Of a stretch of DNA of 21,150 nucleotides, positions 2,291 to 20,298 are shown one piece after another. This DNA comes from a virus. Taxonomy: Duplodnaviria; Heunggongvirae; Uroviricota; Caudoviricetes. The stretch's first letter is position 1. Each line of letters opens with the position of its first letter. The notes under the pieces are model-generated. The model was not told where the DNA came from. It did not search any database and saw only the letters and a list, made by a program, of their open reading frames with translations. Location: the IMG/VR virus record IMGVR_UViG_2778261446_000001. One strand, written 5' to 3'. The position numbers and the translations under genes are program-made.

Positions 2291-2643
2291 TACGCCTCCG
2301 ATGTAACAGTCGTTATTCCATAAAGAGTGTCGATTTCAGCGGAAAACATGACACGTCGGGTCGTGGTATCCACCGTCGTATTGAAAGAGAGGATTGATTT
2401 AACGCCCCGCGTTTCGAGGATGCGCTTACGGATCGCCAGGTTGTAGGTTTCCGGCTTCTGCTTACCGAGTACGGACTGGATCCACGGAGTCCCTTCGGTG
2501 GTATCGAGAAACCATTGCCCATACCACAATTCGAATCGCGTTTTTACCGCCTGCGCCACGGCCTCCGGTGAGTTAATCAGCCAGGTGTCATCACCGCTGC
2601 CAAAGGTATAATCGCCATCGGCGTCTTCACGTCTGTATCGCAT
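2290..2643 (-). CDS. Putative small baseplate wedge protein (gpW / gp25-like)
   Basis: 117-aa ORF with ATG at 2643 overlapping the spike gene stop (ATGA). Its size and its place between the spike and gpJ-like genes match gpW/gp25-like proteins. Assignment is by synteny. Confidence 0.4.
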   Translation of the reverse strand: MRYRREDADGDYTFGSGDDTWLINSPEAVAQAVKTRFELWYGQWFLDTTEGTPWIQSVLGKQKPETYNLAIRKRILETRGVKSILSFNTTVDTTTRRVMFSAEIDTLYGITTVTSEA

Positions 2644-3398
2644 CAGTTAGGCGCTCCTGTGTTACCGCCGCCGGTCTGTACTCCGCCGTGCGTGTGCGTC
2701 ATCAGGCTCTTACCACCAGCTTTTACATCGTTAGTCACCGTGACAGGGCCAAGCATCGTCGCGGTGCCGCCGCTTTCGCCCATCCCCTGAGAGAGATTCC
2801 CGTTTATTGTCACGTTGCCGTTTAGCGTGATGGTGGGTGATGTGATCGTGGTTCCTCCTTCTGCTGTCGCCGTCAACGCGCCGGGAGTTTTAACCGTGAT
2901 ATTATGGCCTGCGGCCACTTCCACAAACGCAGCGCCATCATCAGTACGCAGCTGCGCGCCACTGGTGCTTATTCCGCTTATTTTCTGCGCCTGAGACTGC
3001 GGCCCGACGATACAGAAAGCATCCGATAAATCATGCACCCGGTCGTCGACAGGCTCCTGCACCCCGCCGTTCTGCCACCAGAAATCGATGCAGCGGTCGG
3101 CGAAAATCACCAGGCATTCATCCCCGGCTTTAACCGGAAAAGTCAACGTACAGCCTCCACCGCGCGGAAATACCACTGGCACATCCACCAGCAACGGGTA
3201 ATTTTTGGTAATGCGGTTACCGTCGTTATCCTTTTCAACCGAACGGATAGCTGGCTGCACAACCGCCGTCACCGCGTCGGGATCGAATGACTGAACAATG
3301 CCAGGCAAGGCGACACGGATCTGGTTCTTTGTTGTTTCCCGTTCAGATTTGAATGTTTCGGCAAGGTCGCCGCTGCGGGTCTGGTCAGATACTGCCAT
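2643..3398 (-). CDS. Baseplate central spike protein (gpV / gp138-like)
   Basis: 251-aa ORF with ATG at 3398 and a GGAG about 10 nt upstream. The C-terminal half is Gly/Thr-rich and repetitive (NITVKTPGALTATAEGGTTITSPTITLNGNVTINGN), consistent with a beta-helix, and ends in THTHGG, an HxH motif like the metal-binding apex of phage spikes. Precedes the gpW-like gene as in P2 (V-W-J-I). Confidence 0.55.
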   Translation of the reverse strand: MAVSDQTRSGDLAETFKSERETTKNQIRVALPGIVQSFDPDAVTAVVQPAIRSVEKDNDGNRITKNYPLLVDVPVVFPRGGGCTLTFPVKAGDECLVIFADRCIDFWWQNGGVQEPVDDRVHDLSDAFCIVGPQSQAQKISGISTSGAQLRTDDGAAFVEVAAGHNITVKTPGALTATAEGGTTITSPTITLNGNVTINGNLSQGMGESGGTATMLGPVTVTNDVKAGGKSLMTHTHGGVQTGGGNTGAPN

Positions 3399-3413
3399 TT
3401 AGTAGGCTCCAGA

Positions 3414-3441
3414 AAGCAAAAAACCCGCCGGGTGGCGGGTT
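3414..3441 (-). terminator. Rho-independent terminator closing the AT-rich moron
   Basis: An 8-bp stem (3422-3429 pairing with 3434-3441, mostly G/C) with a 4-nt loop is followed on the minus strand by UUUUUUGCUUU. It sits 17 nt downstream of the membrane-protein stop codon and just upstream of the spike gene ribosome-binding site. Confidence 0.6.
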
Positions 3442-3457
3442 CATTATTGAAGTTTCA

Positions 3458-3697
3458 TTACTGCTTGTTTGCTTCTAACGCTTCAGCTATTCGGCGAAGA
3501 TACTCATTGTTTTTAAATGAAACCATGATGCACTCAAAAAATATTCGGCAAAATACAGCACATAACAAAAGCACTAAAGCGCCAGCAGCCTTCCCATTAA
3601 CAAACGTTATAATGGCGGCAACAACCAGAAGTAACATTGTGATGCCATACAGAACGTTGATGATTTTTGGAGTTATTAATTTATCAAATCCGAACAT
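3458..3697 (-). CDS. Small two-helix inner-membrane protein (moron gene, function unknown; DUF4282-like from memory)
   Basis: 79-aa ORF with ATG at 3697 and AAGGA about 9 nt upstream. It has two hydrophobic helices (IINVLYGITMLLLVVAAIITFV and AAGALVLLLCAVFCRIFFECIMVSF) and a charged C-terminal tail. Local GC is about 38% against about 55% in the flanking tail genes. It has its own promoter-like element upstream and a terminator downstream. Confidence 0.6.
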   Translation of the reverse strand: MFGFDKLITPKIINVLYGITMLLLVVAAIITFVNGKAAGALVLLLCAVFCRIFFECIMVSFKNNEYLRRIAEALEANKQ

Positions 3698-3733
3698 GCG
3701 ACAAATTCCTTATCGTGAAAGTAGAAGTATCAC

Positions 3734-3761
3734 ATTATAATTACGAGTGATTAATCAACAA
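3734..3761 (-). promoter_or_regulatory. Candidate sigma70 promoter for the membrane-protein gene
   Basis: On the minus strand there is a perfect -10 TATAAT (plus coordinates 3739..3734) with TTGTTG 16 nt upstream (3761..3756), about 35 nt upstream of the ATG at 3697. Called by consensus matching only. Confidence 0.4.
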
Positions 3762-4083
3762 TCTTTTTGCATGGAAAGGAACCGATGATTTTCGGCGCAT
3801 CCATGCTGTTCTGCAGCAGTTGGACATTCAGGAAAGCTTTTCCGTTACGTTTCACAAACTCAAAGCCGTAATTGTTACCATCACGGGAAGGCATCAGGCC
3901 CATGTCCATTTTTATGTTTGAATAGTCACCATCTTTTCCCAGAAATTTTATCTTCTGTGATGTGACAGTTTCACCGTTAATAACAGTCATTCCGTCACCG
4001 GTCATCGTGTAGTTGCCGCACTGAATTGCAGCCATCGCCGGAGCAGTAACCATCATAACTAACGCCAAACATAACCGTTTCAT
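3751..4083 (-). CDS. Small secreted/periplasmic protein with signal peptide (moron gene, function unknown)
   Basis: The ORF track gives 3751..4161, but that start overlaps the upstream gene. The likely start is ATG at 4083, overlapping the hub-gene stop (TAATG), giving 110 aa: MKRLCLALVMMVTAPAMA|AIQCGNY... with a typical Sec signal peptide and AxA cleavage site. The mature protein of about 92 aa has two Cys residues (one near each end), suggesting a disulfide. GC is about 43%. The layout is reminiscent of MliC/PliC-type lysozyme inhibitors, from memory only. Confidence 0.55.
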   Translation of the reverse strand: MKRLCLALVMMVTAPAMAAIQCGNYTMTGDGMTVINGETVTSQKIKFLGKDGDYSNIKMDMGLMPSRDGNNYGFEFVKRNGKAFLNVQLLQNSMDAPKIIGSFPCKKIVD

Positions 4084-5147
4084 TAAAGCCCTCTTTCCCT
4101 CGCTGATGAGGAAACAAGATCCGCCGCGCCACGCGCTTCGCACATCATATCCATGTACCACGCCTGGCCCCTTGTATCGCCAGTGTACATAATCCCGCGC
4201 ACAATATAAACGCCATCCGTTGCGATGCTGGCAGGTTGTGCTGTGGTGCCGCTTAGCGTGATATTTCCGTCCGTGTTCTGGTCGGTGATCTGCCCACCAG
4301 CCATCGCAATATCGTTGTTCGACAACGCGGTGCGATATACGGAAGCCTGATCCAGTTGAATGAGCCCATTAACCCGGATGTTCGGATTAATAAGCGCGCG
4401 GACGTTTACGCCGTTGCCGATAGTCTGCTGCGGCATGCCGATAAGCCCGGTGGCGCTGTTGAGCACAATCGCTTCATGAACATATTCGTTATTCGCCACC
4501 ATCTGGCGTTGACCGTCCACGAATTGCCATGTTGCGCCACATTGCCCGGCTACGTTATCCATAAGATGCCGCGTCATGCCAAAGAGCACCCGCCCCCGGG
4601 GGAATACAGTAGCAGGCATTTCAGGCGTCAGGCCTTCGGTCGCGCCTTTGGCTTCGAAGTCTTTCATCAGCGCACGGTTCACATCAGCGACCGTGTAACC
4701 GGCAGCCAGCGTCTGTGAGGTTATACTGGTGGCAAATGCCAGATCCGTATCTGCTGCCTGAATCAGGACATAGGAATCAATAGGGCTGTCTTTTCCTGTG
4801 ACCGAGTAGCGAATTTCTCCGCTGAAAATCAGCCCGTAGTTGCGGCCATCACTCTGGCCCACATCTGCCGCGTCGACTTCGCGCACGGTCCCGACGTCGC
4901 TTGCCGCCACCTCCGGCGCGATACCGTCGTAACCGGCAATCAGCCGCACTTTCGAAAATTCCTTCCCGGTGATTCGGTTCACAGTATCTGCCAAGAGGTT
5001 ATAAATTTTGATAGTCCCTACCCGGGACGCGCTGCTGATGTTGAACCAGTCGATCGTAAAGGTGACTTTGAAATCACTTAGCTCAATTCCCTGACCGTTC
5101 CCGTCCACAAGCTGCAGCTCGAAATGTCTCATCCAGTTCTGTGACAT
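4083..5147 (-). CDS. Putative baseplate hub protein (gpD / gp27-like)
   Basis: 354-aa ORF with ATG at 5147 and GGAG 7 nt upstream. Located downstream of the tape measure and upstream of the central spike, as hub proteins are in Mu/P2/PBSX-like tail modules. Assignment is by synteny and size. Confidence 0.45.
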   Translation of the reverse strand: MSQNWMRHFELQLVDGNGQGIELSDFKVTFTIDWFNISSASRVGTIKIYNLLADTVNRITGKEFSKVRLIAGYDGIAPEVAASDVGTVREVDAADVGQSDGRNYGLIFSGEIRYSVTGKDSPIDSYVLIQAADTDLAFATSITSQTLAAGYTVADVNRALMKDFEAKGATEGLTPEMPATVFPRGRVLFGMTRHLMDNVAGQCGATWQFVDGQRQMVANNEYVHEAIVLNSATGLIGMPQQTIGNGVNVRALINPNIRVNGLIQLDQASVYRTALSNNDIAMAGGQITDQNTDGNITLSGTTAQPASIATDGVYIVRGIMYTGDTRGQAWYMDMMCEARGAADLVSSSARERGL

Positions 5148-19631: not shown

Positions 19632-20156
19632 TCAATTAATCAGCAGTTCAGGCTGTGTCACCTGCAAGATGTATTCATGCTCGACAGCCAGGACACGCTT
19701 CTCTTTCTTCCGTTCGTTCATTAACCGACTGCCGATCGTACCTTTCAGCTTTGAGCGTGTTTCTTTGATGGCGTAGCGGTGCTGCATTTCTTCGCCAATT
19801 GCCATGCGGCGGCTCAGTTGCTCTGCCATCCAGTTGAATGCCGCGATATAGCTCTCCTTGATTGCCGCAGCAGCTTTCCCGGTGAACCCCATCACAACCA
19901 TGATCCAGCCATCTTTCGTCAGGCTGTACATCGGGCGAACCTTGCCCTGCTCATCGATATAATCAGCCGACGCAAAATTGCGTTGGCTAAACTCACGCGA
20001 GCAATCAGCCTTAACCTGCTCGATTTTCCTGAGAACATCACCGTGTCGCTTGCCGAAGTACTTGGCAATTTTTCTGGATGTGGTAACGACCTCTCCGTTT
20101 TTGGCTTGCACCATTTCTCGGAAGTCGAAGGCTGGAATAACTGAATGATTATTCAT
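19632..20156 (-). CDS. rha: Rha-family phage regulatory protein
   Basis: The track ORF begins at GTG 20192; the preferred start is ATG 20156 (MNNHSVIP...) with AAGG upstream. Contains the motifs TTSRKIAKYFGKRHGDVLRKIE and YSLTKDGWIMVVMGFTGKAAAAIKESYIAAFNWM, characteristic of the Phage_pRha family. Confidence 0.75.
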   Translation of the reverse strand: MNNHSVIPAFDFREMVQAKNGEVVTTSRKIAKYFGKRHGDVLRKIEQVKADCSREFSQRNFASADYIDEQGKVRPMYSLTKDGWIMVVMGFTGKAAAAIKESYIAAFNWMAEQLSRRMAIGEEMQHRYAIKETRSKLKGTIGSRLMNERKKEKRVLAVEHEYILQVTQPELLIN

Positions 20157-20298
20157 AGCGTCTTTACCTTTTAGAAAGTGAGCCTGTCTCACAGAAAAGC
20201 CGCCCGAGAGAGGTCGCCACCTATAACGGCATTTCTCAGGCTCGCTTACTGAAAGGCTCTCGTTAATATGCGCGTGAGATGCGCGTTTACTGCGGACA

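What the first reader, a model, noticed from the sequence alone, without database searches (positions are those of the whole stretch)
3458..3761. Independently transcribed 79-aa two-helix membrane protein
This small membrane protein (two hydrophobic helices plus a charged C-terminal tail) has a perfect -10 hexamer with a TTG-containing -35 at 16-nt spacing, a well-spaced AAGGA Shine-Dalgarno, and a canonical intrinsic terminator. It looks like an autonomous expression unit embedded in a late structural operon. Small prophage membrane proteins with this architecture often mediate superinfection exclusion or abortive infection.
Basis: partly seen in the sequence, partly recalled or inferred. Interest (0 to 1): 0.55.

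Follow-up and report, generated by a model that had tools for sequence, protein, structure and literature searches.

The report
DUF4282 membrane-protein cargo gene in prophage
A small two-helix membrane protein gene of the uncharacterised DUF4282 family sits as swappable accessory cargo in a tail-gene hotspot of an E. coli lambdoid prophage; it is an ordinary "moron"-type insertion, but its recurring position next to tail genes makes it a reasonable untested candidate for blocking infection by other phages.

Summary
Window 3458-3697 (minus strand) encodes a 79-aa protein that matches Pfam DUF4282 above the curated cut-off. It has two hydrophobic helices and a charged C-terminal helix, and it evolves under strong purifying selection.

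A TTGTTG-16-TATAAT promoter-like site, an AAGGA ribosome-binding site and a strong hairpin plus T-run terminator are all present. G+C falls to 0.36 over the gene, against about 0.55 in the flanks.

Two corrections apply:
- **Terminator.** It is not the gene's own. The same terminator precedes the spike gene in 69 of 74 related phages whatever the cargo, including phages with empty slots.
- **Promoter.** Its own promoter is not a family trait. It is conserved in the E. coli-type cassette but absent where DUF4282 abuts a tape-measure gene.

The gene occupies a hypervariable slot between the baseplate hub (plus a conserved 110-aa secreted protein) and the spike. Elsewhere this slot carries PD-Lambda-1, an Mrr-like nuclease or a YafO toxin pair. 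DUF4282 homologues also lie directly after three unrelated tape-measure genes, and as conserved chromosomal genes.

Function is untested and no paper mentions the family. Superinfection exclusion at the inner membrane, by analogy with HK97 gp15, is the leading guess. It is a new member of a known kind, of moderate interest.

The parts
3458..3697 (-). DUF4282 gene: a 79-aa small inner-membrane protein with two transmembrane helices and a conserved C-terminal amphipathic helix
   Evidence: ORF list. Pfam PF14110 at 42.2 bits against a cut-off of 27. phrog_12129 at E = 8e-48, function unknown. Invariant I8 T9 P10 I12 Y17 G35 R51 E55 F61 K62 E65 Y66 L67 R69 I70 across 32 homologues. dN/dS 0.03-0.06 against diverged cassettes. 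AlphaFold2 pLDDT 86.5.
3707..3711 (-). Shine-Dalgarno AAGGA, 9 nt upstream of the ATG
   Evidence: Read directly from the sequence. AAGGA is kept in cassettes L293 and L295.
3734..3761 (-). Promoter-like site: -35 TTGTTG (3761-3756), 16-nt spacer, -10 TATAAT (3739-3734). Predicted transcription start at about 3726-3729.
   Evidence: Both hexamers are identical in L293 and L295, although 4 of 16 spacer positions and much of the leader differ and coding dS exceeds 2.5. No transcript data are available.
3411..3442 (-). Intrinsic terminator (9-bp stem, ACCC loop, T-run) at the 3' edge of the cargo slot. It is a backbone element shared by relatives with other cargo or none.
   Evidence: for the structure. 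Searches show the same element before the spike gene in 69 of 74 relatives, including the empty slots L212, L215, L272 and L276.
3751..4083 (-). Conserved 110-aa signal-peptide protein (phrog_3443; named 'STY1065/STY2022 family' in RefSeq). It forms the 5' edge of the slot, and its start overlaps the hub stop codon (TAATG).
4083..5147 (-). Baseplate hub gene (weak match to E217_GP41)
   Evidence: Annotated as baseplate hub in SEN34 and YP3.
2643..3398 (-). Baseplate spike gene, immediately downstream of the terminator
   Evidence: Pfam PF18352 (phage protein N-terminal domain), E = 1.4e-43, plus the GpV Apex motif. RefSeq names it a 'membrane-puncturing spike protein'.

Best explanation
**What it is.** The gene is accessory ('moron'-type) cargo inserted in a recombination hotspot of a lambdoid E. 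coli prophage. That prophage uses a Q antiterminator and carries an SEN34/Brunovirus-like contractile-tail module. The slot lies between the baseplate hub (plus a conserved 110-aa secreted protein) and the spike gene.

**Shown.**
- The cargo is a DUF4282-family protein of 79 aa.
- Its G+C is foreign to the flanks.
- It brings a sigma-70 promoter-like site and a ribosome-binding site.
- It sits upstream of a terminator that the phage backbone keeps at this junction regardless of cargo.

**Inferred mechanism.**
1. In a lysogen, host RNA polymerase starts near 3727 and stops at the T-run (about 3411-3420). This gives a monocistronic mRNA of about 310 nt and leaves the spike and baseplate genes silent.
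2. During lytic growth, Q-modified polymerase reads through the terminator, so the gene is also made late.
3. The protein inserts into the inner membrane as a hairpin with both termini in the cytoplasm (6 K/R inside against 1 in the loop). It probably oligomerises.
4. Its invariant intramembrane R51/E55 pair and its invariant juxtamembrane helix FKNNEYLRRI probably let it interfere with passage of a superinfecting phage's DNA across the inner membrane. This would be superinfection exclusion of the HK97 gp15 / P22 SieA kind.

**Confidence by part.** Identity and cargo status: about 0.9. Expression from its own promoter in the lysogen: about 0.55. Exclusion function: about 0.3.
For: **Family and reality of the gene.**

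**Cargo status.**
- G+C is 0.36-0.41 over the gene against 0.52-0.58 in the flanks.
- Phages 689R2, SEN34 and YP3 share the flanks but carry unrelated genes in the slot.
- In a census of 74 relatives the slot is 50-1450 nt long and holds more than 15 cargo types.
- Of 5426 complete E. coli genomes, 191 match part of the 401-nt cassette query and 83 hold the cassette itself.

**Promoter.** It is the only TTG-N19-TATAAT in the window. The hexamers are conserved at saturated dS.

**Terminator and read-through logic.**
- Structure.
- The prophage that is 100% identical to the window is lambdoid, with N, CI-like repressor, Cro, CII and Q.
- The O145:H28 RM13514 copy has an intact Q antiterminator.
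- The HK97 record annotates several terminators inside its tail operon.

**Defence-like neighbourhood.** The same slot carries PD-Lambda-1 (PADLOC E = 3.6e-84, 11 loci), an Mrr_cat nuclease and a YafO toxin pair.

**Recurrent tail-gene association.** DUF4282 lies directly after three unrelated tape-measure families:
- 30 unique class B regions with a gap of about 10 nt;
- 9 Klebsiella siphovirus-type regions;
- Edwardsiella phage GF-2 and its relatives.

It also lies in the hub-spike slot of E. coli, Pectobacterium, Hafnia and Erwinia.

**Precedent.** HK97 gp15 is a moron next to the tape-measure gene. It is a small inner-membrane protein with chromosomal homologues in Enterobacteriaceae, and it blocks DNA entry in a tail-dependent way (PMC3594210). 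[quoted passage not shown]

**Oligomer hint.** Some proteins carry 5-6 tandem DUF4282 units.
Against: - No experiment or paper addresses DUF4282.
- There is no PADLOC or NCBIfam hit.
- There is no homology to HK97 gp15 (hhalign probability 0.5%).
- Conserved chromosomal homologues in Serratia, Yersinia, Enterobacter and others keep every invariant residue. The phage copy may therefore simply supply a cellular activity.
- The -35 is weak, at 3 of 6.
- Promoter-like sites of similar overall quality occur at near-chance rates in this region (4 found against 2.6 expected).
- Most tape-measure-adjacent copies lack a promoter-like site. They look co-transcribed with late genes, which fits a lytic-cycle role as well as exclusion.
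- Structure searches were uninformative.
Confidence: 0.4

Rival explanations
1. Lysogenic conversion of host physiology. The phage copy supplies an extra or differently regulated dose of a housekeeping small membrane protein, for example in envelope stress, ion or lipid homeostasis. Any benefit to the lysogen would be unrelated to phage defence.
For: Close homologues sit in conserved non-phage chromosomal neighbourhoods in Serratia, Yersinia, Enterobacter/Lelliottia/Leclercia and Franconibacter/Cronobacter. Phage and chromosomal copies share all 15 invariant positions, including R51, E55 and FKNNEYLRRI. This differs from gp15 and YebO, where the C-terminus diverged. The DUF4282 family is broad: 680 clusters at 50% identity.
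Against: It does not explain the repeated placement next to tape-measure or hub genes in at least four tail modules. It also does not explain sharing a slot with known defence genes. The chromosomal neighbourhoods give no functional hint.
Confidence: 0.25
2. Abortive-infection or toxic membrane effector. The protein forms a pore, or depolarises the membrane, when triggered by an infecting phage, and so kills the cell before progeny are made.
For: The protein is a small two-helix membrane protein with conserved charged residues inside the second helix (R51, E55). Tandem 5-6-unit fusions suggest a multi-hairpin assembly. The slot also carries toxin-type cargo (YafO) and nucleases.
Against: There is no partner, sensor or antitoxin gene in the cassette. 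Widespread single-copy chromosomal homologues argue against a toxic product. There is no PADLOC match.
Confidence: 0.12
3. A lytic-cycle function of the phage itself, expressed with the late genes. Examples are modulating lysis timing in the manner of a holin or antiholin, protecting the infected cell or progeny from secondary injection, or assisting the tape-measure protein at the membrane.
For: The gene is always co-oriented with the tail operon. In class B it follows the tape-measure stop by about 10 nt, and only 3 of 30 loci have a promoter-like site. It is present in 22 of 28 phages of that lineage and has diverged into at least 14 clusters at 65% identity, suggesting long residence. Its architecture (two helices, termini predicted inside, charged C-terminus) resembles class II holins, which is my own knowledge. 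In a Pantoea prophage it lies just after the lysis cassette.
Against: It is dispensable. Relatives in both lineages replace it with unrelated genes or nothing. The prophage already has a lambda-family holin, endolysin and Rz. There is no holin family match. Only 3 of 50,697 isolated phage genomes carry a homologue.
Confidence: 0.15
4. The promoter-like site is fortuitous A+T-rich sequence. The gene would then be expressed only by read-through of the late operon, so it is cargo but not an autonomous unit.
For: The -35 matches 3 of 6 positions. The consensus scan found promoter-like sites at near-chance frequency and did not list this one. Promoter-like sites are missing from the Pectobacterium copy and weak in the Erwinia copy of the same slot. 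Some other cargo genes in the slot overlap the upstream gene.
Against: Both hexamers are 12 of 12 identical in L293 and L295, while the spacer, leader and synonymous sites have diverged. The exact pattern is unique in the window. Defence cargo in the same slot must be expressed in lysogens to be useful.
Confidence: 0.3

Closest known systems
HK97 gp15 moron (superinfection exclusion protein; YebO-related)
   Same: Both are small inner-membrane proteins encoded by accessory insertions inside a lambdoid phage tail operon. Both are co-oriented with it and followed by a CCCGC...GCGGG T-run terminator just before the next tail gene. Both have chromosomal homologues confined to Enterobacterales. DUF4282 relatives likewise sit beside the tape-measure gene.
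   Different: There is no sequence relationship (hhalign probability 0.5%). gp15 has 62 aa and one hydrophobic helix, whereas this protein has 79 aa and two. gp15 diverged from YebO at its C-terminus, whereas phage and chromosomal DUF4282 copies keep the same invariant C-terminal motif. In this window the slot lies between hub and spike, not at the tape-measure gene. Exclusion has been shown for gp15 and is untested here.
[quoted passage not shown]
   Same: Both are prophage- or phage-encoded integral inner-membrane proteins proposed to act on the incoming DNA-delivery conduit (SieA: PMC10883804). From my own knowledge, T4 Imm is also a small protein of about 83 aa with two predicted membrane helices.
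   Different: SieA has 162-164 aa and three predicted helices. No Pfam family other than DUF4282 passed its cut-off for the window protein, so there is no evidence of homology to either.
Phage accessory/defence hotspots (P2 and P4 hotspots; prophage-borne systems such as PD-Lambda-1)
   Same: All are fixed junctions in a conserved phage backbone where unrelated cargo alternates between relatives. Here the cargo includes PD-Lambda-1, an Mrr-type nuclease and a YafO pair. The comparison with P2 and P4 hotspots is from my own knowledge of Rousset et al. 2022 and Vassallo et al. 2022.
   Different: This hotspot lies inside the baseplate gene cluster of an SEN34-like tail module. It is bounded 3' by a conserved intrinsic terminator. 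I found no description of it in the held literature, although I did not search for one exhaustively.
Pfam DUF4282 (PF14110)
   Same: The protein is a full-length match above the curated cut-off. RefSeq already names this protein 'DUF4282 domain-containing protein'.
   Different: Nothing differs; it is a member. The family has no known function and no hit in the paper library.
Class II holins / pinholins (for example phage 21 S68)
   Same: Similar size, two membrane helices, predicted N-in/C-in topology and a charged C-terminal tail. The holin features are from my own knowledge.
   Different: There is no holin family match in Pfam or PHROGs. The gene is outside the lysis cassette, and the prophage has its own lambda-family holin. 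Conserved chromosomal homologues are not expected for holins.

Membership tests
Pfam DUF4282 (PF14110) | Whole-protein HMM score at or above the gathering cut-off (27 bits) | tested here: met
   42.2 bits, E = 1.2e-10, covering residues 2-71 and profile positions 2-85 of 86.
Pfam DUF4282 (PF14110) | Two-helix integral membrane architecture with the family motifs: N-terminal ITP, R..E in helix 2, and NE after helix 2 | tested here: met
   Hydropathy peaks at residues 12-33 and 37-60. AlphaFold2 helices at 10-33 and 37-78. The motifs are invariant in 32 homologues and recognisable in distant tandem-repeat members.
Moron (Juhala/Hendrix sense, as summarised in PMC3594210) | Extra DNA present in some phages but absent from close relatives at the same junction | tested here: met
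   689R2, SEN34 and YP3 carry other genes there. A census of 74 relatives shows more than 15 cargo types and 4 empty slots.
Moron (Juhala/Hendrix sense, as summarised in PMC3594210) | Nucleotide composition different from the surrounding genes | tested here: met
   G+C is 0.36-0.41 against 0.52-0.58.
Moron (Juhala/Hendrix sense, as summarised in PMC3594210) | Own promoter | tested here: inconclusive
   TTGTTG-16-TATAAT is unique in the window and conserved in L293 and L295 at saturated dS. However, the -35 matches only 3 of 6, there are no transcript data, and the site is absent from other DUF4282 contexts.
Moron (Juhala/Hendrix sense, as summarised in PMC3594210) | Own terminator | tested here: not met
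   A strong terminator follows the gene. It is a backbone element, found in 69 of 74 relatives with any cargo and in empty slots.
Moron (Juhala/Hendrix sense, as summarised in PMC3594210) | Expression from the repressed prophage | not testable with these tools
   This needs RNA 5'/3'-end mapping or a reporter in a lysogen.
HK97 gp15 / YebO exclusion proteins | Sequence homology to gp15 | tested here: not met
   hhalign of alignment A1 against gp15 gives probability 0.5% with one aligned column.
HK97 gp15 / YebO exclusion proteins | Blocks DNA entry of superinfecting phage in a tail-dependent way | not testable with these tools
   This needs plating, adsorption and DNA-entry assays.
Known anti-phage defence systems (PADLOC-DB 2.0) | Match to any defence-system protein model | tested here: not met
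   No family at E <= 0.01.
Holins (Pfam/PHROG holin families) | Match to a holin family and a position in the lysis cassette | tested here: not met
   Only DUF4282 and a sub-threshold YbhQ hit in Pfam. PHROG 12129 has 'unknown function'. The lysis genes are elsewhere.

The most novel reading that the evidence does not exclude
DUF4282 is a previously unrecognised, widespread family of phage-borne inner-membrane superinfection-exclusion proteins. Temperate phages would have captured them repeatedly from a chromosomal gene of Enterobacterales. They would act as oligomers, using the invariant intramembrane R/E pair and the FKNNEYLRRI helix, to block the tape-measure or ejection conduit of incoming phages. 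On this reading the hub-spike and tape-measure-Dit junctions of SEN34/E217-like tail modules are undescribed defence hotspots bounded by conserved terminators.
Probability: 0.25. Interest if true: 0.65.

Novelty: new member of a known kind. Interest (0 to 1): 0.4.

Why it matters
If DUF4282 does exclude phages, it gives a function to a protein family of about 680 clusters (at 50% identity) that no paper in the library mentions. It would also add a new type of injection blocker that is easy to test, being one 79-aa gene.

Whatever the function, the census shows two things.
- A terminator next to a cargo gene need not have arrived with it. Here cargo is inserted just upstream of a terminator the backbone already had. 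This refines how 'moron' boundaries should be read.
- Two junctions in the tail module of a common group of enterobacterial prophages are exchange points. They carry known defence genes (PD-Lambda-1, an Mrr-type nuclease, a YafO pair) alongside many genes of unknown function. That makes them a useful place to look for new defence or conversion genes.

Tried and rejected
- **Structure searches.** Foldseek of the confident monomer model against PDB and BFVD gave nothing with E <= 0.001. A profile search of PDB sequences gave only chance hits. A helical hairpin is too generic to be informative.
- **Modelling an oligomer.** I modelled a natural five-repeat DUF4282 protein (P0127) as a proxy. The single-sequence AlphaFold2 model had pLDDT 54 and is unusable.
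- **Literature.** 'DUF4282' and 'PF14110' returned zero papers.
- **Rfam.** No RNA family reached its gathering score in the window.
- **NCBIfam and PADLOC.** Neither matched the protein.
- **Homology to HK97 gp15.** Rejected.
- **Terminator as part of the cassette.** Rejected after finding it in relatives with other cargo and in empty slots.
- **DUF4282 as a core tail-module gene of the lineage where it follows the tape measure.** Rejected because 5 of 28 relatives carry other genes there and one carries only a remnant.
- **The antisense 102-aa ORF (3432-3740, plus strand).** Dismissed as a shadow of the DUF4282 frame.
- **Census caveat.** Regions were de-duplicated only by exact sequence. 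The 27 hub-spike regions are dominated by one nearly identical E. coli cassette, which has the same protein in 23 of them.
Full report

Yes. On the minus strand, window 3697-3458 is an ATG-initiated ORF of 79 aa: MFGFDKLITPKIINVLYGITMLLLVVAAIITFVNGKAAGALVLLLCAVFCRIFFECIMVSFKNNEYLRRIAEALEANKQ.

- Hydropathy shows two hydrophobic segments (about 12-33 and 37-60) followed by a charged tail.
- An AlphaFold2 model built on 32 homologues is confident (mean pLDDT 86.5). It shows a helical hairpin whose second helix runs on to residue 78.
- Lys and Arg counts are 6 in the two termini against 1 in the connecting loop. By the positive-inside rule this predicts that both termini are cytoplasmic (an inference).
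- Upstream lie AAGGA (3711-3707), 9 nt from the ATG, a perfect TATAAT (3739-3734) and TTGTTG (3761-3756) at 16-nt spacing.
- The combined pattern TTG-N19-TATAAT occurs once in the whole window on both strands, against 0.13 expected.
- The -35 matches only 3 of 6 positions. The consensus scan therefore did not list it, and that scan found promoter-like sites at near-chance frequency in the region (4 against 2.6 expected).
- Downstream, at 3442-3411, is a 9-bp G+C-rich hairpin with a T-run. It folds at -18.6 kcal/mol, z = -3.2.

**2. What is the protein?**

- Pfam PF14110 scores 42.2 bits against a cut-off of 27.
- PHROGs places the protein in phrog_12129, of unknown function.
- PADLOC and NCBIfam have no match.
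- RefSeq already annotates the identical protein as 'DUF4282 domain-containing protein'.
- A search of 5.8 billion proteins found 87 clusters. All sources that give a name call them DUF4282 or hypothetical, and almost all are from Enterobacterales.
- In an alignment of 32 of them, fifteen positions are invariant down to 48% identity. These include the N-terminal ITP motif, G35 in the loop, R51 and E55 one turn apart inside helix 2, and F61 K62 E65 Y66 L67 R69 I70 in the juxtamembrane helix.
- Against two diverged cassettes the coding sequence has saturated synonymous change (dS > 2.5) and dN/dS of 0.03-0.06. It is therefore a real gene under strong purifying selection.
- A profile search of 1.84 billion representatives found 680 clusters, mostly of 75-140 aa. 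Four proteins carry five or six tandem DUF4282 units. That is a hint, and no more, that the single-unit proteins work as oligomers.
- No paper in the library contains 'DUF4282' or 'PF14110'.

**3. Where does it sit?**

The window is 100% identical to a prophage in E. coli S163-2 and TUM9754.

- That prophage is lambdoid. It has N, a CI-like repressor, Cro, CII, nin genes, a Q antiterminator, a lambda-family holin, an endolysin and Rz, then terminase, head and a contractile tail. In S163-2, Q is split by IS1A.
- The O145:H28 RM13514 prophage carries the identical cassette and an intact Q.
- The tail module resembles Salmonella phage SEN34 (Brunovirus) and Escherichia phage vB_EcoM-689R2.
- Gene order on the minus strand is: tape measure, Dit-like, Pam3_gp18-like plug, hub, a 110-aa signal-peptide protein, DUF4282, spike, sheath-initiator-like, Baseplate_J.

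**4. It is cargo in a hotspot.**

- G+C drops to 0.36-0.41 over the gene, against 0.52-0.58 on either side.
- Phages 689R2, SEN34 and YP3 share the hub, the 110-aa gene and the spike. Between the last two they carry unrelated genes of 170, 138 and 266 aa.
- I fetched 80 viral contigs that encode the 110-aa protein, and 74 had both flanks. The space between that gene and the spike ranged from about 60 to 1450 nt and held more than 15 cargo types.
- Among the cargo are PD-Lambda-1 (PADLOC E = 3.6e-84, 11 loci), a membrane-anchored Mrr_cat nuclease, a YafO toxin with a partner gene, and several cassettes without any family.
- Of 5426 complete E. coli genomes, 191 match part of the 401-nt cassette query and 83 hold most of it, that is, the DUF4282 cassette itself.

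**5. The terminator is the backbone's, not the gene's.**

- The same hairpin (CCCGCC-loop-GGCGGG plus T-run, then GCTTTCTGGAGCC and the spike start codon) follows the unrelated cargo of 689R2 and SEN34.
- It is present in 69 of 74 census loci, with loop variants but a conserved stem.
- It is also present in four loci where the slot is empty (L212, L215, L272, L276).
- Cargo is therefore inserted between the stop codon of the 110-aa gene and a pre-existing terminator.
- The terminator is tolerated inside a late operon because late transcription in lambdoid phages is carried out by Q-modified, terminator-resistant polymerase (established knowledge of lambda Q). The Q gene is present in these prophages, and the HK97 record likewise annotates several terminators inside its tail operon.
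- In a lysogen the terminator would stop any transcript that starts in the slot before it reaches the spike gene (an inference).

**6. Is the gene independently transcribed?**

This is plausible but not shown.

The best evidence is a phylogenetic footprint. In cassettes L293 and L295 (proteins 87% and 84% identical, synonymous sites saturated), both hexamers and their immediate flanks (GTTGTTGATTAAT and AATTATAATGTG) are unchanged. Four of 16 spacer positions and much of the leader differ.

Against a general rule:
- In the same slot in Pectobacterium the gap is only 37 nt, with no good -35. Erwinia has at best an 8-of-12 match. Hafnia has TTGATG-16-TAAAAT.
- In other phage contexts promoter-like sites are rare (next section).

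**7. Where else is DUF4282?**

I fetched 160 further loci and looked up contigs for individual homologues. Among 144 unique regions the contexts were as follows.

| Context | Unique regions | Terminator-like site after the gene | Promoter-like site (>= 9 of 12) |
|---|---|---|---|
| Hub / 110-aa gene to spike slot | 27 | 27 | 25 |
| Directly after a tape-measure gene and before a Dit-like gene (median gap 10 nt) | 30 | 30 | 3 |
| After an unrelated TMP_3-type tape-measure gene in Klebsiella siphovirus-type prophages | 9 | 9 | 2 |
| Elsewhere | 78 | 42 | 33 |
| Other genes in the same loci (background) | 1120 | 125 | 64 |

- The hub-spike class is mostly one E. coli cassette, so its promoter count is not 25 independent observations.
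- In Edwardsiella phage GF-2 and its relatives the gene abuts a third tape-measure family and precedes an Arc/Ant module.
- In a Pantoea prophage it follows the lysis cassette.
- Sixty-one of the 'elsewhere' regions are chromosomal, with genus-specific conserved neighbours in Serratia, Yersinia, Enterobacter/Lelliottia/Leclercia and Franconibacter.
- The tape-measure-to-Dit junction is itself a variable slot with its own backbone terminator. Of 28 relatives, 22 carry DUF4282, one carries a remnant, and five carry other membrane-anchored or signal-peptide proteins.
- Only 3 of 50,697 isolated phage genomes encode a homologue. The family is mainly a prophage and chromosomal one.

**8. How it most likely works.**

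Shown:
- It is a conserved two-helix membrane protein gene.
- It is carried as exchangeable cargo and co-oriented with the tail genes.
- It has a promoter-like site and a ribosome-binding site, upstream of a backbone terminator.
- It sits in a Q-antiterminated prophage.
- It shares its slot with known defence genes.
- It recurs beside tape-measure, hub and spike genes in several unrelated tail modules.

Inferred:
- It is expressed from its own promoter in the lysogen and by read-through late in infection.
- It inserts into the inner membrane with both termini inside, and it oligomerises.
- It interferes with DNA entry of superinfecting phages.

The precedent is HK97 gp15. That is a moron beside the tape-measure gene, encoding a small inner-membrane protein with chromosomal homologues restricted to Enterobacteriaceae. 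It blocks genome entry in a way that depends on the incoming phage's tail (PMC3594210). P22 SieA similarly blocks the ejection-protein conduit from the inner membrane (PMC10883804).

This is analogy only. DUF4282 is not homologous to gp15, has two helices rather than one, and keeps the same invariant motifs in phage and chromosomal copies, unlike gp15 and YebO.

I put the exclusion function at about 0.3. The rivals are a host-physiology role, a toxic or abortive membrane effector, a lytic-cycle role and a fortuitous promoter. They are scored separately in this report.

**9. Novelty and verdict.**

The ORF and its family assignment are already in RefSeq. The arrangement is a textbook moron with one correction, namely that the terminator belongs to the backbone. 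The function of the family is entirely open.

Two things go beyond the finding and are useful leads: the two terminator-bounded hotspots, and the repeated juxtaposition of DUF4282 with tape-measure genes. I rate it a new member of a known kind, interest 0.4. The most novel reading still open is that DUF4282 is a new family of injection-blocking exclusion proteins. I give that about 0.25 probability, and it would deserve about 0.65 if true.

Noticed in passing
window 3751-4083 (-): A conserved 110-aa protein with a signal peptide (MKRLCLALVMMVTAPAMA|A...; phrog_3443; 'STY1065/STY2022 family' in RefSeq). Its start codon overlaps the hub stop codon (TAATG). It is kept in SEN34, 689R2, YP3 and 275 viral contigs. 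Its G+C is lower than that of the hub gene, and its function is unknown. SEN34's annotation appears to start it too late, giving 78 aa and missing the signal peptide.
   Followed up: partly
window 3411-3442 (-); L212, L215, L272, L276 and 65 other loci: A backbone intrinsic terminator lies immediately upstream of the spike gene in 69 of 74 related phages, including those with an empty slot. The stem CCCGCC/GGCGGG is conserved while the loop varies. L293 and L295 have a compensated variant (GGTCGCC/GGCGGCC). This suggests selection for a terminator inside the late operon.
   Followed up: yes
L262 3421-4650; L247 3439-4266; L277 4091-4507 with L282 3511-4089; L260 4187-4582 with L219 3427-4200: The same hub-spike slot in relatives carries PD-Lambda-1 (11 loci), a membrane-anchored Mrr_cat nuclease, a YafO toxin with an upstream partner, and frequent two-gene cassettes (257 or 243 aa plus 131 or 142 aa, about 26 loci) with no Pfam or PADLOC match.
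   Followed up: partly
L181-L208, around 2640-3000: There is a second hotspot, between the tape-measure and Dit-like genes of a related tail module. It has its own conserved terminator (AAAATCCCCTCCACGTAGGGGATTTTTTT). Its cargo is DUF4282 (22 of 28), a DUF4282 remnant (L188), 78-93-aa proteins with an N-terminal membrane anchor (L187, L207), or 245-260-aa signal-peptide proteins (L194, L204, L206).
   Followed up: partly
L210 18673-20073 (E. coli S163-2, the genome 100% identical to the window): The prophage's Q antitermination gene is split by an IS1A insertion. This copy of the prophage is therefore probably unable to express its late operon, and any expression of the DUF4282 gene there would have to come from a local promoter.
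   Followed up: no
P0127, P0132, P0135, P0192 (not in the window): These proteins of 341-632 aa are made of five or six tandem DUF4282 units. Two of them have C-terminal zinc-ribbon-like CxxC motifs. This is a possible clue to the oligomeric state of single-unit members. A single-sequence AlphaFold2 model of P0127 was too poor to use.
   Followed up: partly
L297 5001-5243 and 5408-7316 (Edwardsiella phage GF-2): DUF4282 (ORF-19) abuts the tape-measure or 'lytic tail protein' gene with no gap. It is followed by an Arc-like, Arc-like, Ant (immI-like) module inserted in the middle of the tail genes.
   Followed up: no
window 19632-20192 (-): A Rha-family regulatory protein gene lies between the Rz lysis gene and the small terminase gene. 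The O145:H28 RM13514 relative instead has a putative metallopeptidase and a DUF2280 gene there. This looks like another variable junction.
   Followed up: no
window 3432-3740 (+): A 102-aa ORF lies antisense to the DUF4282 gene. It is a shadow frame with no family support. It was also picked up as the 'longest ORF' in my automated census of loci L213 and L218.
   Followed up: yes
L058, L059, L061, L063, L077 (Escherichia spp.), L064, L072 (Pseudocitrobacter): More distant DUF4282 homologues (motif LMP instead of ITP, 84-87 aa) sit about 220 nt downstream of a conserved 319-aa gene. I did not characterise this further context.
   Followed up: no
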